From the IMG/VR virus record IMGVR_UViG_3300045988_151019: 52,849 nt of DNA, one strand, 5' to 3'. The stretch is from a virus. Lineage: Duplodnaviria > Heunggongvirae > Uroviricota > Caudoviricetes. The notes beneath the pieces are model-generated. The model was given only the letters and a program-made list of their open reading frames with translations, searched no databases and had not been told where the DNA came from. Both the position numbers and the translations under genes were made by a program. Position 1 is the stretch's first letter; the number at the start of each line of letters is the position of its first letter. Shown piece by piece: positions 19,639 to 21,388 of this stretch.

Positions 19639-19818
19639 CCTCTCACTCCATTATTTAACGAATAAAAAAGCTGCGGTGCCGGGTGCCTCCCGGTGTCCTT
19701 TGGCTGGTTATCCACCGTGGACGGGGAAACAAGGAGAAATGAATGGACTGATATAACCATTTCCCCGCGTGCGCTTAGCCGCATTCACCGCAACGGAAAG
19801 AGCATTCTTGGTGGACCT

Positions 19819-20566
19819 GTAGATTGGGATATGAACCCGTTACAGGAGAATGCTCTTACCTGTTACGTGCTCCGTTTCGTGGAGCTAACGGCGGGTGATC
19901 GGGCCGCACCAGGCTGGACTTATTTCAGCGTTATGCTCATGCCAGAGAATCAAACTGTGATGGTCGGTGCTGAACTCCGACACAGGGTTGTAGCAAGCCC
20001 CGCAAAGCGCGCACTACTGTAGTTGCGGCACATCAGCCTGTGCATTCACCACAATGTTGAGAACACTGGTTGTCACGCTGCAACGCAACATTTATTCGTA
20101 GATTGGGATATGACCCCGTTACGCCAGTGTTCTCAACGTTGTAGTGCCGGTTACGGTTCCGGCCAGGTCTCTTCCTCAACGGGGTGTTCTCCATACGGAC
20201 TACCGTTTATTGGTCGTTCCTGCGGTTTATGTTGTGAAGCCAGATGCTTATCTTCTGGTTGCTTCAAAGAGCTGCACTTCATCACAACGGTAAGAGCACT
20301 CGATGCATTTAAGCCAAGCCCCATAAGGGAGAATGCCCTTACCTGTTGTGTTGTGATGACCGGTGCTGATCTCCGGCTTGCGGTTATTTCAGACTCTCAC
20401 GGGCGTTTAATTGCCCCGCCGAACAGCTCTTTTCCGCAATAGCTGCAATGTCTTTCGCGCATCAGCCTGCGCATTCATCACAACGGTAAGGGTACTTCGT
20501 AGGGATTCGAACCCTCTGCCAAGCTCGGCGATCTCCGACGTCGCAAAATACCCTTACCTGTTGTGC
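19819..20566. repeat. repeat-rich non-coding region with tRNA-fragment-like modules
   Basis: GTAGATTGGGATATGA(A/C)CCCGTTAC at 19819 and 20098; CCCTTACCTGTTGTG at 20334, 20551 and 20993; CATCAGCCTG(T/C)GCATTCA at 20030 and 20460; T-arm-like GGATTCGAACCC at 20503. Confidence 0.55.
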
Positions 20567-20642
20567 TGGTGCCGATTAACGGACTCGAACCGCTGACATC
20601 CTGCTTACAAGGCAGGCGCTCTACCAACTGAGCTAAACCGGC
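20567..20642 (-). tRNA. tRNA-Thr (UGU)
   Basis: 76 nt; anticodon loop CTTGTAA; T-arm GGTTCGAGTCC; 3' CCA. Confidence 0.9.
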
Positions 20643-20644
20643 AT

Positions 20645-20720
20645 TGGCGATGGTGGATGGATTTGAACCATCGACCCGTTGATTAACAGTCAACCGCTCT
20701 AACCGCTGAGCTACACCATC
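20645..20720 (-). tRNA. tRNA-Asn (GUU)
   Basis: 76 nt; anticodon loop CTGTTAA; 7-bp acceptor stem; 3' GCCA. Confidence 0.9.
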
Positions 20721-21388
20721 ACTTGCCGGGTACGTCTCCGGCGAGGGCTTCCACCTCCGTATGCTTTTCGGCGCACCGCGCCCTGGCTGCAATTCGGTAA
20801 CAGGGGATGCATAACCCTGGCTTCCAGCGTGATTAGCGCTTTCAGCATGACGGGATATACCCGTAAATTCGTGGAACTGTACCCAAAGTGCTGTTAAGCA
20901 CCGCTGTTACGCTGAAAAGAAGACGCAACAGGAAAGGACGCTGACCAACAGATGGCCCCTTCTCGTTCATCTGGTTAATCACACCAGCGCCCTTACCTGT
21001 TGTGCCTCCCCGTTCCCTAATACACAGACGGGGACACTCTGCGGTCGATTTTTTGACGGGGGACGACTCATACCCCGTGGCGTCTGGCTTCTTAGGCCGC
21101 TACCATCATCAGATCATCGTTTGCATTTACTTTAATGGTCAGTTTCTAAACCGCCGCAAAGTCGCTAACCATGACGAAAACCCTGAAAAAAACGCCCACC
21201 CGAAGATGGGCAAACTGGAAGCTCGTAACGCACTTCGGTGTTGCCACTTAGGCGTATGGTCAACCTGGCAACTCGGCGTCATGAGGGGGAAGGAGTCACT
21301 ACCCCGCCATACTTGCCGCCGCGCCTGTCGCGGCTAACAGCTAAATCGCTCTATAAATCACGATTCATTGAGGCGATATTACACTAAT

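What the first reader, a model, noticed from the sequence alone, without database searches (positions are those of the whole stretch)
19690..21010. Repeat-rich tRNA-remnant region next to the intact tRNA-Thr/Asn pair
Between the small membrane-protein gene and tRNA-Thr lie about 900 bp with no convincing ORF but several repeat families (GTAGATTGGGATATGAxCCCGTTAC twice; GAGAATGCxCTTACCTGTT twice; CATCAGCCTGxGCATTCA twice) and T-arm-like fragments (GGATTCGAACCC, GGGTTCATATCCC on the minus strand). The spacer CACAACAGGTAAGGG that follows the 3' CCA of tRNA-Thr recurs at three other places, including 20993 beyond tRNA-Asn. This fits a decayed or rearranged tRNA array. My recollection is that canonical P1 carries tciABC between the tRNAs and ban, and those genes are absent here, but I am not certain of that gene order.
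Basis: partly seen in the sequence, partly recalled or inferred. Interest (0 to 1): 0.55.

Follow-up and report, generated by a model that had tools for sequence, protein, structure and literature searches.

The report
Phage RNA hairpin array beside tRNAs
The "tRNA-remnant" stretch of this P1-like phage-plasmid is an array of five conserved RNA hairpins alternating with small structured RNA units, transcribed together with two tRNAs ahead of the helicase gene ban. The same unannotated modules occur in many unrelated enterobacterial phages, so the stretch is probably neither junk nor the "upl/plp" protein genes annotated in phage P1.

Summary
The tciABC genes are replaced here by other genes.

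The "decayed tRNA array" reading is only partly right. On the minus strand, the strand of the tRNAs and ban, the region resolves into two alternating parts:
- Five long-stem hairpins with a CACAAC/GUUGUG base, a bulged A, a GGUAAGRGC/GCYCUUACC stem and a variable apex.
- Closed "units" with two small hairpins; the last unit is a sub-threshold STnc100 match.

The same hairpin-plus-unit module occurs in more than 100 viral contigs: lambdoid early-left and late operon leaders, Klebsiella siphoviruses, a Uetakevirus and an Ackermannviridae phage. It also occurs in prophages of about 14 Enterobacterales genera. Across 88 sequences the stem shows strong covariation and strand-specific G·U pairs. No Rfam family covers the hairpin.

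P1-like relatives differ by deletions and insertions, including tRNA-Ser and tRNA-Tyr, whose breakpoints lie at the repeats. P1's upl/plp ORFs on the opposite strand lack support.

Function is inferred, not shown. I favour co-transcribed, processed non-coding RNA cassettes in which conserved stems punctuate and stabilise variable cargo. One apex is an anticodon-arm-less tRNA mimic. A link to the sRNA GcvB is suggestive but untested.

The parts
21376..21410 (-). Pban promoter and bivalent C1 operator (Op72/Oban), mapped from the P1 annotation. This is the start of the ban-operon transcript that reads through the whole region.
   Evidence: P1 features at L001 4504-4533 map colinearly to the window here. 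A self-inverted match at 21376-21410 is seen in the BLAST against relatives.
21193..21212 (-). Strong intrinsic terminator (GCCCAUCUUCGGGUGGGC + U7) about 190 nt downstream of Pban. It lies inside P1's annotated 'dicF-like region'.
   Evidence: Terminator scan and P1 annotation. Rfam DicF gives no hit at E<=1.
20921..21005 (-). Hairpin module A, the diverged copy upstream of tRNA-Asn.
   Evidence: Covariance model R1 scores it 29.1 bits, E=2.4e-5, and it was not in the training set. MFE fold.
20645..20720 (-). tRNA-Asn (GUU).
   Evidence: ARAGORN. Rfam tRNA 74.5 bits.
20567..20642 (-). tRNA-Thr (UGU). Hairpin B starts 1-2 nt after its CCA end.
   Evidence: ARAGORN. Rfam tRNA 72.9 bits. Sequence.
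20478..20566 (-). Hairpin module B. It has a long stem enclosing a tRNA-like apex: a 7-bp acceptor-like stem, a D-arm-like hairpin GCGA-CGUCGGAGA-UCGC, a 12-nt linker in place of the anticodon arm, and the T-arm AGGG-UUCGAAU-CCCU.
   Evidence: R1 scores 88 bits over 20456-20566, but this copy was in the training set. Fold. Homologues with compensatory stem changes occur in BUCT554 and L097.
20352..20484 (-). Unit 1. Its closing stem is GUUGUGAUGA...UCAUCACAAC. It contains hairpin GCGCA-GGCUGA-UGCGC, a variable centre, and hairpin CCGG-AGAUCAGCA-CCGG. It is 96-98% identical to unannotated DNA in lambdoid prophages and in Klebsiella phage IME207.
   Evidence: for the matches. Closing-stem, hairpin and loop-loop pair counts.
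20283..20351 (-). Hairpin module C. Its apex CUCCCUUAUGGGGCUUGGCUUAAAUGCAUCGAG recurs in MK54, L050, L064, L101 and L114.
   Evidence: R1 52.6 bits..
20231..20288 (-). Short unit S. Its closing stem is GUUGUGA(UG)AAG...CUUCACAAC around hairpin CCAGA-AGAUAAGCA-UCUGG. It is also present in pJN2-26, PJ16, Sasha-type phages and others.
   Evidence: Sequence. BLAST matches to window 20225-20301. Loci L012 and L013.
20047..20146 (-). Hairpin module D. It has 23-bp arms with a diverged but compensated stem sequence. The apex carries GGGGUCAUAUCCCAAUCUAC.
   Evidence: Inverted repeat I1. R1 70.1 bits. Fold.
19956..20055 (-). Unit 2. Its closing stem is UUGUGGUG...CAUCACA, with hairpins GCACA-GGCUGA-UGUGC and GUCGG-AGUUCAGCA-CCGAC.
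   Evidence: Repeat families D2 and D6. Pair counts.
19868..19955 (-). Pre-hairpin spacer containing GGUGCGG..GAUCACCCGCCGUUAGCUCCACGAAACGGAGC. The same element precedes the hairpin in many lambdoid contigs.
   Evidence: BLAST matches to window 19849-19943. Upstream contexts listed.
19789..19867 (-). Hairpin module E. Its apex carries GGGUUCAUAUCCCAAUCUAC.
   Evidence: Inverted repeat I2. R1 64.6 bits.
19660..19792 (-). Unit 3, an STnc100-like RNA. It matches model positions 31-147 of 206 and ends in CACCGCAGCUUUUUUAUU, a terminator-like U-run, just before the 78-aa membrane-protein gene.
   Evidence: Rfam STnc100 37.8 bits, E=1.7e-6, below the gathering score of 47.

Best explanation
The region is the long non-coding leader of the C1-repressed ban operon, read on the minus strand. 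It is built from RNA cassettes of a family that is widespread in phages of Enterobacterales.

Each cassette has two parts:
- A long hairpin. Its base is CACAAC/GUUGUG, followed by a conserved bulged A, a stem of about 13 bp, and a variable apex.
- A closed unit. Its closing stem re-uses the hairpin's GUUGUG. It has two small hairpins whose loops are complementary (GCUGA/UCAGC) and a variable centre.

tRNA genes are one kind of cargo inserted between cassettes.

Shown: the pairing is conserved at the RNA level, on this strand, across unrelated phages; the variable parts occur as discrete, shuffled alleles; P1-like relatives differ by recombination at the conserved arms.

Inferred: on induction, Pban transcribes one precursor. 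The long stems act as endonuclease-processing and 3'-protection punctuation, comparable to RNase III or RNase E/P sites. Processing would release the tRNAs and discrete stable small RNAs. The conserved scaffold would present variable cargo domains that act in trans on the host, as proposed for the related Hfq-bound prophage sRNAs STnc100 and PasD. One cargo, the apex of module B, mimics the top half of a tRNA.
For: Anatomy. Folding of the minus strand gives four 16-23-bp stems plus closed units. Inverted and direct repeats from the repeat finder coincide with the arms.

Family. BLAST finds pieces in 114 phage records from several virus families. Unit 1 is present in 1243 of 5426 complete E. 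coli genomes, with no gene annotated under the chromosomal matches listed.

Structure, on 88 distinct sequences:
- 94.2% of cells are paired, against 30-64% when the partner is slid by 1-3 columns.
- 13 of 24 pairs show changes on both sides.
- 91 compensated cells are observed, against 23.5 +/- 3.4 in shuffles (0 of 500 shuffles reach it).
- G·U and U·G pairs are frequent, for example 57 U·G at one position. These would be A·C mismatches on the other strand.
- A covariance model scores the window's copies 52-88 bits on the minus strand and 22-25 bits on the plus strand. It finds copies only within 19770-21005 in the 52.8-kb window. Module A, which was not in the training set, scores 29.1 bits.

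Unit. The closing stem is 98.5% paired and the two hairpins 97.8% each. The loop-loop complementarity is 97.2% paired, with compensatory variants GUCGA/UCGAC and ACUGA/UCAGU.

Link to tRNAs. 30 of 120 viral loci have tRNAs within 1.2 kb, and every one is on the module's strand. Hairpins start 0-2 nt after the CCA end in P1-likes, P7 and pJN2-26.

Context elsewhere. The module sits at the start of the early-left operon just after cI, and just after the IsrJ-like tR' terminator between Q and the lysis genes. This is the known 'moron' site for prophage sRNAs (PMC4104026).

Modular evolution. Breakpoints fall at 20474/20300, 20547/20353 and 20098/19843, and tRNA-Ser replaces 20031-19811 in P7 and D6.

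Against coding. See the Upl/Plp rival explanation.
Against: - There are no expression or processing data for this region. Cleavage by RNase III, E or P is inferred from stem length and from analogy.
- No sigma-70 consensus promoter was detected inside the region, so transcription rests on the Pban mapping from P1.
- The hairpin base and the unit closing stem compete for the same GUUGUG, so the in-vivo fold is uncertain.
- The 3' arm was used as the search pattern, so its apparent conservation is partly by construction.
- Only unit 3 resembles a curated sRNA family, and it scores below threshold (37.8 against 47 bits). A lambdoid example gives no STnc100 hit at E<=1.
- Four to five tandem copies in P1-likes, against usually one elsewhere, could also reflect neutral duplication.
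Confidence: 0.55

Rival explanations
1. Decayed or rearranged tRNA array. The hairpin apices and repeats are remnants of former tRNA genes and their spacers, with no function of their own.
For: - Module B has a perfect T-arm, a D-arm-like hairpin and a 7-bp acceptor-like stem.
- ARAGORN at 80% thresholds gives a weak call over module B.
- Several apices in other phages carry GGUUCGAnUCC-type T-arms next to the 3' arm.
- Relatives carry real tRNA-Ser or tRNA-Tyr within the array.
- Relatives differ by recombination at the repeats.
Against: - There are no extra tRNA or pseudo-tRNA calls at 90-100% thresholds, and no Rfam tRNA hits.
- The repeated 'spacer' is a hairpin arm under covariation in 88 sequences.
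- The B-type apex is conserved, with compensatory stem changes, in distant phages.
- Most apices have no tRNA features.
- In the loci where tRNAs were found, none lies inside a hairpin.
Confidence: 0.1
2. The plus strand encodes the proteins Upl and Plp (a putative lipoprotein), as annotated in P1 and RCS47. The repeats would be incidental.
For: Plus-strand ORFs of 109 aa (19693-20022) and 139 aa (20023-20442) are open. They are colinear with the annotated upl/plp of P1 and RCS47.
Against: - Neither ORF has a hit reaching Pfam's cut-off: plp has none, and the upl-region ORF has only a 13.8-bit match (E=0.051).
- P1's plp overlaps tRNA-Thr.
- A deletion of about 196 nt (not a multiple of three, estimated from the coordinates) changes the Plp C-terminus between P1 and this window.
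- The ORFs are deleted or replaced in P7, D6 and SJ46, where other or no ORFs are annotated.
- Among the listed RefSeq PGAP records, no gene is annotated under the chromosomal matches; P1-like plasmid matches list only tRNA-Thr, once with a hypothetical protein.
- The 16 variable sites among relatives fall 2/8/6 on codon positions 1/2/3, so there is no third-position excess.
- The conserved pairing with G·U pairs is on the opposite strand.
Confidence: 0.04
3. The hairpins act in DNA. They would be folded single-strand recombination sites, analogous to integron attC sites, that mediate cassette exchange, or single-strand initiation sites for replication.
For: - The architecture resembles attC: conserved inverse ends (CACAAC...GTTGTG), a conserved extrahelical base, and a variable terminal structure.
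- Cassette-like exchange of cargo occurs between unrelated phages.
- Breakpoints in relatives lie at the arms.
Against: - The ends do not fit RYYYAAC/GTTRRRY when read directly from the sequence.
- No integron integrase is associated in the contexts inspected.
- Orientation always follows local transcription and the tRNAs.
- Ordinary homologous recombination between 23-36-nt conserved segments explains the breakpoints.
- Wobble pairs fit RNA better than DNA.
Confidence: 0.07
4. Cis-acting processive antitermination RNA, analogous in function to HK022 put. The module would modify RNA polymerase so that it reads through downstream terminators to reach ban, or the early-left or late genes in lambdoid phages.
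For: - The module sits at the very start of early-left operons in phages where no N-like ORF was seen among the ORFs listed (not scanned against protein families), and in late-operon leaders.
- The P1-type leader contains terminator-like elements before ban.
Against: - HK022 itself has no match to the model at E<=1.
- put consists of two stem-loops of about 70 nt (PMC9378689), which is a different architecture.
- In late operons the module lies downstream of tR', and Q already provides antitermination.
- Four to five tandem copies are hard to rationalise.
Confidence: 0.07
5. Sponge or mimic of the sRNA GcvB. The CACAACA-containing 5' arms, freed by processing or by formation of the unit closing stem, would titrate the host sRNA GcvB as the prophage anti-sRNA AgvB does. 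This would raise amino-acid uptake alongside the phage tRNAs.
For: - CACAACA is the published consensus target of the GcvB R1 seed and is the active motif of AgvB (PMC4104026).
- It occurs 5 times on the minus strand of this 1.6-kb leader and 0 times on the plus strand. The rest of the 52.8-kb window has 3 on the minus strand.
- The 3' arm CUUACCGUUGUGAUG is 14/15 identical to GcvB nt 57-71, CUUACGGUUGUGAUG. The 5' arm is therefore complementary to R1 beyond the heptamer.
Against: - Duplex energies of the arms with GcvB R1 are not better than shuffled arms (p=0.07-0.48; only the end of unit S reaches p=0.015).
- The motif is base-paired in the predicted fold.
- The majority lambdoid variant is less similar to GcvB, about 12/15 by my count from the consensus.
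- Rfam AgvB gives no hit.
- The five motif copies are not independent, because they belong to repeats.
Confidence: 0.1

Closest known systems
STnc100 (Rfam RF02076) and the related PasD prophage sRNAs
   Same: - Unit 3 aligns to STnc100 model positions 31-147, including the closing stem and the final CCGGGAGGCACCCGG hairpin.
- These are prophage-borne RNAs found in late-operon moron sites, for example 75 nt downstream of stx2 (PMC12370729).
- STnc100 and PasD are reported as related, and PasD as Hfq-bound by RIL-seq, in preprint 10.64898/2026.05.13.724894; STnc100's Hfq association is from my recollection of the Salmonella co-IP studies.
   Different: - The score is below the gathering threshold (37.8 against 47 bits).
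- Units 1, 2 and S, and a lambdoid example, give no STnc100 hit.
- The STnc100 family description does not include the upstream hairpin module or the tandem array with tRNAs.
- The function of STnc100 is itself unknown.
AgvB/AsxR anti-sRNAs of EHEC prophages (Tree et al. 2014, PMC4104026)
   Same: - Phage-borne RNAs in the same moron position.
- A conserved scaffold with a variable target-recognition segment.
- AgvB acts through the motif CACAACA, which heads the hairpin's 5' arm here.
   Different: - AgvB and AsxR are 51-60-nt primary transcripts with a single-stranded 5' seed.
- There is no sequence or Rfam similarity.
- Here the motif is paired in a long stem, and the energy test was not significant.
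tRNA-spacer sponge 3'ETS-leuZ, and tRNA-linked stable RNAs of phage T4 (from my own knowledge)
   Same: These are non-tRNA RNAs co-transcribed with tRNAs and released by tRNA-processing nucleases. In the 3'ETS-leuZ case the spacer directly after the CCA end acts in trans.
   Different: There is no sequence relationship. Processing of this array has not been demonstrated.
RNase III punctuation hairpins of the T7 early transcript, and rRNA processing stems (from my own knowledge)
   Same: Long intercistronic stems bracket functional RNAs within one precursor.
   Different: Cleavage here has not been tested. The conserved bulged A and the U·U mismatch could be recognition features or antideterminants.
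tRNA-like domains: tmRNA TLD, YrlA, mascRNA
   Same: The apex of module B combines acceptor-like, D-like and T arms without an anticodon arm.
   Different: - Rfam YrlA does not hit the modules; its only weak match (25.6 bits) lies over the two true tRNAs. mascRNA scores only 14.9 bits at E=6.8 over module B.
- The topology differs from YrlA.
- Only some apices are tRNA-like.
P1 upl/plp annotation (AF234172)
   Same: Same DNA, colinear, and about 98% identical outside a deletion of about 196 bp.
   Different: The annotation is on the opposite strand and is protein-coding. It is unsupported by the tests listed under the Upl/Plp rival explanation.

Membership tests
tRNA gene or pseudogene | A cloverleaf detectable by ARAGORN or by the Rfam tRNA covariance model. 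| tested here: not met
   Only tRNA-Thr and tRNA-Asn are called at 100% and 90% thresholds. At 80% there is one weak call over module B among spurious calls. Rfam tRNA gives no hit to the modules at E<=10.
tRNA gene or pseudogene | A canonical T-arm (5-bp stem, UUCRANY loop) next to an acceptor 3' strand. | tested here: inconclusive
   Module B has AGGG-UUCGAAU-CCCU with a 4-bp stem, followed by a 7-nt strand that pairs with an acceptor-like 5' strand. Modules D and E have GGG-UCAUAU-CCC, which lacks A58. Modules A and C have no T-arm.
STnc100 (RF02076) | A score at or above the Rfam gathering threshold of 47 bits over the 206-position model. | tested here: not met
   Unit 3 scores 37.8 bits over positions 31-147 only. 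The other units give no hit at E<=10.
STnc100 (RF02076) | A closing stem plus a terminal CCGGGAGGCACCCGG hairpin and a 3' U-run, in a phage or prophage context. | tested here: met
   The alignment shows both elements with high posterior probability. A U-run follows at 19660-19671.
Hairpin-plus-unit module family defined here (model R1) | CACAAC/GUUGUG base, bulged A, stem of about 13 bp, variable apex, then GUGAAU and a 5-bp hairpin. | tested here: met
   Five hits, on the minus strand only, at 29-88 bits.
Upl/Plp proteins of P1 | A conserved open reading frame under purifying selection, with homologues or domains. | tested here: not met
   neither ORF has a hit reaching Pfam's cut-off (the upl-region ORF has only a 13.8-bit match, E=0.051), the frame is not conserved among relatives, PGAP lists no gene under the chromosomal matches shown, and variable sites fall 2/8/6 on codon positions 1/2/3.
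AgvB-type GcvB sponge | A CACAACA motif complementary to the GcvB R1 seed. | tested here: met
   Five copies on the minus strand. 14/15 identity between the 3' arm and GcvB nt 57-71.
AgvB-type GcvB sponge | The motif is accessible and pairs with GcvB better than chance, or the RNA matches Rfam AgvB. | tested here: not met
   The motif is paired in the MFE fold. Duplex energies do not differ from shuffles. Rfam AgvB gives no hit.
HK022 put antiterminator RNA | Homology to putL or putR; two stem-loops of about 70 nt. | tested here: not met
   Model R1 finds nothing in the HK022 genome at E<=1. The architecture differs from the description in PMC9378689.
HK022 put antiterminator RNA | Cis-acting suppression of downstream terminators. 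| not testable with these tools
   This needs read-through reporters or in-vitro transcription.
Integron attC site | RYYYAAC/GTTRRRY core sites and an associated IntI integrase. | tested here: not met
   ACACAAC and GTTGTGR deviate from the consensus at 1 and 2 positions, read directly from the sequence. No integron integrase appears in the contexts inspected.
DicF-like RNA (P1 annotation of 21180-21281) | A match to Rfam DicF. | tested here: not met
   No DicF hit at E<=1 in 18000-22000. Only the terminator at 21193-21212 is evident.

The most novel reading that the evidence does not exclude
The hairpin-plus-unit module is a previously undescribed 'scaffold-and-cargo' RNA system of enterobacterial phages. 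A conserved, pseudoknotted scaffold displays interchangeable cargo domains. Some cargoes mimic the acceptor/D/T 'top half' of a tRNA, and all are headed by the GcvB-target motif CACAACA. Phages would shuffle these cargoes by recombination at the scaffold and deploy them together with their tRNAs. Their role would be to reprogram host translation and amino-acid supply, or to decoy tRNA-directed nucleases, during lytic growth.
Probability: 0.15. Interest if true: 0.8.

Novelty: new variant of a known kind. Interest (0 to 1): 0.6.

Why it matters
Phage P1 is a reference genome, and this segment has carried two unverified protein genes (upl and plp) since 2004. The evidence here says it should probably be re-annotated as non-coding RNA.

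The same structured module is present in about a fifth of complete E. coli genomes and in phages of several virus families. It has no Rfam model and no annotation. It sits exactly where phages place tRNAs, toxins and regulatory sRNAs.

The module offers three things:
- A concrete explanation of how tRNA content varies between P1-like phage-plasmids, namely cassette recombination at the conserved arms.
- A ready covariance model for annotation.
- Testable hypotheses: processing punctuation, tRNA mimicry, or titration of the host sRNA GcvB.

Tried and rejected
- Small ORF in the units. MNAQADARKTLQLLRKRAVRRGN in unit 1 is reminiscent of an N-type arginine-rich motif. Only the first seven codons are conserved, because they overlap the conserved hairpin, and the reading frame ends at different places in K751, MK54, BUCT554 and unit 2. 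Rejected.
- boxA/boxB nut-site reading of UGCUCUUAC plus GCGCAGGCUGAUGCGC. The boxA-like segment is base-paired and covaries with the 5' arm, and no N-like ORF stood out among the ORFs listed in the contexts inspected (not scanned against protein families). Set aside.
- put-like antiterminator. There is no match in HK022.
- Hammerhead or other ribozyme reading of CUGAUG...GAAA. The sequence after the hairpin is variable, and Rfam gives no ribozyme hit.
- GcvB pairing energetics. These were not significant against shuffles. A first attempt with full-length GcvB was uninformative because duplexfold allowed large loops.
- Rfam families at E<=10. Only chance-level miRNA-precursor hits to the long stems, a weak mascRNA hit and the STnc100 partial match were found.
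- Literature. Full-text searches for the conserved sequence strings returned nothing. The P1 genome paper (PMC523184) is not held. No paper found describes RNAs from this P1 segment.
- Non-Enterobacterales pattern hits in the genome scan. Most have no covariance-model match. By my estimate about 17 chance hits are expected for this pattern in 596 Gb. The two that do match (a 4-kb 'Martelella' scaffold and a 'Geobacteraceae' MAG contig) are probably contamination or misbinning, which I did not check.
- A folding script with a hard constraint returned no usable pairs. It was replaced by duplex search.
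Full report
**Setting**

The window is a P1-like phage-plasmid. The finding lies between dmt (21396-23660, minus strand) and ban (16840-18210, minus strand). In P1 this interval is the leader of the C1-controlled ban operon. It runs Pban/Op72, a 'dicF-like region', tRNA-Asn, tRNA-Thr, then two plus-strand CDSs named upl and plp, then tciABC, trnI and ban. Here, as in RCS47 and Ro157c2YLVW, tciABC is replaced by a 78-aa membrane ORF and an SPFH (Band_7) lipoprotein gene. 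Everything functional around the finding is on the minus strand.

**Checking the observation**

Repeated 12-mers number 17, against a mean of 0.09 in Markov shuffles. The two T-arm-like strings are present. ARAGORN and Rfam confirm tRNA-Thr and tRNA-Asn and find no other tRNA in the region. The recollection about tciABC is correct.

**Anatomy on the minus strand**

When the strand of the tRNAs is folded, the direct and inverted repeats turn out to be the arms of long hairpins. There are five:
- A: 20921-21005
- B: 20478-20566
- C: 20283-20351
- D: 20047-20146
- E: 19789-19867

Each has a CACAAC/GUUGUG base, a bulged A and a stem of about 13 bp (GGUAAGRGC.../...GCYCUUACC, or a compensated variant in D). 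The apex is variable.

Closed units lie between the hairpins. Each unit has four features:
- Its closing stem re-uses the hairpin's GUUGUG (for example GUUGUGAUGA...UCAUCACAAC).
- It has a first small hairpin, GCRCA-GGCUGA-UGYGC.
- It has a variable centre.
- It has a last hairpin, CCGG-AGAUCAGCA-CCGG.

The units are unit 1 (20352-20484), a short unit S (20231-20288), unit 2 (19956-20055) and unit 3 (19672-19792). Unit 3 is the only part that resembles a curated RNA family. It matches STnc100 at 37.8 bits and E=1.7e-6, below the gathering score of 47, over model positions 31-147. It ends in a U-run just before the membrane-protein gene. A strong intrinsic terminator sits at 21193-21212, about 190 nt downstream of Pban.

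**Relatives**

P1-like genomes are about 98% identical here. They differ by deletions and insertions whose ends fall exactly on the repeats:
- P1, D6 and SJ46 lack 20474-20300, which fuses hairpins B and C.
- P7 and Ro157c2YLVW lack 20547-20353.
- SJ46 also lacks 20098-19843, which fuses D and E.
- P7 and D6 carry a tRNA-Ser(UGA) between a unit and a hairpin, in place of 20031-19811.
- Ro157c2YLVW has tRNA-Tyr between tRNA-Asn and tRNA-Thr.

In P7 the tRNA-Ser is preceded directly by a unit's closing CCACCACAAC. It is followed directly, after its CCA end, by a hairpin that begins GCGCAACGUUAAGAG. The array is therefore cassette-like, and tRNAs are one kind of cassette.

**The same modules in unrelated phages**

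Unit 1 is 96-98% identical to unannotated DNA in three kinds of genome. These are the early-left leader of lambdoid phage mEp460, Stx phages, and a promoter-proximal gap next to tRNA-Ser and tRNA-Arg in Klebsiella siphovirus IME207. In each case it sits behind a hairpin of the same type with a different apex.

A sensitive BLAST finds pieces in 114 phage records. These include a Uetakevirus (BUCT554), Ackermannviridae (K751), 110-kb Klebsiella phages or phage-plasmids, and P22-like Salmonella phages. Reading six of these loci shows the same grammar, for example tRNA-Asn | hairpin | short unit | tRNA-Ser | hairpin in pJN2-26.

The species-representative genome scan, checked with a covariance model, gives true modules in about 14 Enterobacterales genera and essentially nowhere else. 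Unit 1 is found in 1243 of 5426 complete E. coli genomes, with 911 chromosomal places; under the chromosomal matches listed, the features column reads 'none'.

Where tRNAs occur within 1.2 kb of a module (30 of 120 viral loci), all are on the module's strand.

Gene contexts are consistent. The module lies just after cI at the head of the early-left operon. It also lies between Q and the lysis genes, directly after the IsrJ-like tR' terminator. This is the classical 'moron' site that also holds the tRNA-Asn/Thr pair in Sf6-type phages (PMC8022706) and the prophage sRNAs of EHEC (PMC4104026). Most phages have one module. P1-likes have four strong copies plus module A.

**Is the structure real, and is it RNA?**

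I aligned 88 distinct hairpins and counted the 24 proposed pairs:
- 94.2% of cells are paired, against 30-64% for slid partners.
- 13 pairs show changes on both sides.
- 91 compensated cells are observed, against 23.5 +/- 3.4 in shuffles (0 of 500 shuffles reach it).
- Whole-stem swaps occur, such as AGC/GCU to CUG/CAG, or GGUAAGAGCAUUG to GGGAAGGACACUGG with the matching 3' arm.
- Wobble pairs are common: U·G in 57 sequences at one position, and G·U or U·G at three positions in the base. These would be A·C mismatches on the other strand.
- A bulged A, and in most members a U·U mismatch, are conserved.

The covariance model built from this alignment scores the window's copies 52-88 bits on the minus strand and 22-25 bits on the plus strand. 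It detects module A, which was not in the training set, at 29.1 bits. It finds nothing elsewhere in the 52.8-kb window.

For the unit, the closing stem is 98.5% paired and each of the two hairpins 97.8%, with G-to-A/C-to-U covariation in the closing stem. The two hairpin loops are complementary (GCUGA/UCAGC) in 97.2% of cells. Compensatory variants are GUCGA/UCGAC in one contig and ACUGA/UCAGU in MK54 and P7. This suggests a loop-loop contact, but the support is thin because the loops vary little.

One caveat applies. The search pattern fixed part of the 3' arm, so conservation there is partly by construction. Covariation in the rest of the stem is not affected.

**The variable parts**

Apices and unit centres are hypervariable in sequence and length, but they come as discrete alleles that recur in different combinations. 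The C-type apex is found in P1-likes, MK54 and several lambdoid contigs, with different units downstream.

The B-type apex recurs in BUCT554 and L097. The D-like hairpin (GCGA-CGUCGGAGA-UCGC, with a GG loop) and the T-arm (AGGG-UUCGAAU-CCCU) are conserved. The linker varies, and the acceptor-like stem shows compensated changes. This apex looks like a tRNA without an anticodon arm.

Several other apices carry GGUUCGAnUCC-type T-arms next to the 3' arm, and one of them also has a D-like hairpin. Many apices have no tRNA features at all. Standard detectors do not call any of them. The tRNA flavour is real, but these are conserved structured elements and not decaying genes.

**Coding alternative**

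The plus-strand ORFs annotated as upl and plp have no supporting evidence:
- Neither ORF has a hit reaching Pfam's cut-off: plp has none, and the upl-region ORF has only a 13.8-bit match (E=0.051).
- P1's plp runs into tRNA-Thr.
- The deletion of about 196 nt between P1 and this window is not a multiple of three.
- The ORFs are removed or replaced in P7, D6 and SJ46.
- SJ46 is annotated with different ORFs that overlap the tRNAs.
- PGAP annotates no gene under the chromosomal matches listed; P1-like plasmid matches list only tRNA-Thr, once with a hypothetical protein.
- The 16 variable sites among relatives fall 2/8/6 on codon positions 1/2/3.

**How it probably works**

What is shown is an RNA-level, strand-specific, conserved fold in a transcribed leader, embedded with tRNAs and evolving by cassette exchange.

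What I infer is as follows. On induction, Pban produces one precursor. The long stems serve as processing and protection punctuation that separates the tRNAs from discrete small RNAs. The scaffold presents variable cargo that acts in trans. This fits three published observations:
- PasA is cut from a longer transcript.
- STnc100 and PasD are related; PasD is reported as an Hfq-bound prophage sRNA, and STnc100's Hfq association is from my recollection of the Salmonella co-IP studies (10.64898/2026.05.13.724894).
- EHEC prophage sRNAs combine a conserved scaffold with a variable recognition segment (PMC4104026).

The recurrent 23-36-nt conserved segments are sufficient substrates for homologous recombination. 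That explains both the P1-like rearrangements and the near-identical unit 1 in unrelated phages.

**A lead that did not reach significance**

CACAACA, the first seven bases of the hairpin, is the published consensus target of the GcvB R1 seed and the active motif of the prophage anti-sRNA AgvB. It occurs five times on the minus strand of this 1.6-kb leader and never on the plus strand. The 3' arm CUUACCGUUGUGAUG is 14/15 identical to GcvB nt 57-71, so the 5' arm complements R1 beyond the heptamer.

However, duplex energies of the arms with R1 are no better than shuffled arms. The motif is paired in the predicted fold. The commoner lambdoid variant is less GcvB-like. I keep this as a low-probability rival and as part of the novel case.

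**Other alternatives**

- HK022 put-type antitermination fits the position at operon starts. HK022 has no match to the model, and the architecture differs (PMC9378689).
- An attC-like DNA role fits the conserved ends, extrahelical base and variable tip. The core consensus is not met, no integron integrase is nearby, and orientation tracks transcription.
- A nut (boxA/boxB) reading, a small arginine-rich ORF and ribozyme motifs were examined and dropped. Details are under 'tried and rejected'.

**Verdict**

The interpretation needs revising. The segment is not a tRNA graveyard, and probably not upl/plp. It is an expanded array of a widespread, unannotated family of structured phage RNA modules that travel with phage tRNAs. 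The family is new to Rfam, and I found no description of it in the literature I could search. It belongs to a known kind, prophage moron sRNAs, and one unit is a distant relative of STnc100. Function remains to be shown experimentally.

Noticed in passing
window 19377-19379 (minus strand; codon 15 of the ORF at 18594-19421): The SPFH/Band_7 lipoprotein gene that replaces tciABC has a TAA stop inside its signal peptide (MKKTLISAAIILGS*CLTGC). RCS47 has Leu (TTA) at this codon. This is either a nonsense mutation, making the gene a pseudogene, or a sequencing error.
   Followed up: partly
window 21180-21290 (minus strand): The first roughly 190 nt of the Pban transcript end at a strong intrinsic terminator (21193-21212). 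P1 annotates this stretch as a 'dicF-like region', but Rfam DicF gives no hit at E<=1. It may be a separate short leader RNA, and ban expression would need read-through of the terminator.
   Followed up: partly
window 20478-20492, and L177 (E. coli K-12 gcvB) nt 57-71: The hairpin 3' arm CUUACCGUUGUGAUG is 14/15 identical to the start of the GcvB R1 seed region, CUUACGGUUGUGAUG. Given the shared GUUGUG, I estimate the extension has a chance probability of about 4e-4. That estimate is post hoc.
   Followed up: partly
window 20457-20472 with 20366-20378; family-wide: The loops of the first and last hairpins of each unit are complementary (GCUGA/UCAGC), with two kinds of compensatory variant. This suggests a kissing-loop pseudoknot.
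   Followed up: partly
L026 9495-9571 (minus strand): An IsrJ family match (60.5 bits), ending in the tR'-type terminator, lies immediately upstream of the hairpin module in a lambdoid late-operon leader. In many contigs the module follows such a terminator directly.
   Followed up: partly
Loci such as L015, L026, L062 and L085, 0-100 nt after the unit: In many lambdoid contigs the unit is followed by a conserved tail of about 85 nt (AACCAAACCCACUACCUGGGACCCUUCGGCC...) that ends in an intrinsic terminator. This could correspond to the published 84-nt PasA/PasC sRNAs, which are cut from a longer transcript. I could not obtain those sequences to check.
   Followed up: no
L010 (Klebsiella phage K751), about 1150-1205: A fragment resembling a tRNA 3' half (GUAUGGUUCGAUUCCAUGCCUUCGCCA) lies about 300 nt upstream of the module. 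ARAGORN does not call it.
   Followed up: no
L010, L011 and L013, about 100-250 nt upstream of the module: Another conserved non-coding element (GCGACUUUGCGGGUUUUUAGAAACUGACCACAAAGAUAAAUGCAAACGA...GGCGCACUGGCCCGGUGUGAUUAAUAAUGGGC) precedes the module in three unrelated phages.
   Followed up: no
window 18491-18566 (minus strand): ARAGORN calls this tRNA-Met(CAU). The P1 annotation treats the orthologue as tRNA-Ile2, with a lysidine-modified CAU anticodon.
   Followed up: no
L145 ('Martelella alba' 4.2-kb scaffold) and L146 ('Geobacteraceae' MAG contig): These carry full-scoring modules (87-89 bits) although they are assigned to non-Enterobacterales. This is probably contamination or misbinning of enterobacterial phage DNA.
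   Followed up: no
window 37332-37506, 40954-41039 and 41107-41159: Rfam matches above the gathering thresholds to sok, the C4 antisense RNA and its a1/b1 targets. C4 and its targets are the known P1 immI immunity RNAs; sok belongs to a hok/sok-type plasmid addiction module.
   Followed up: no
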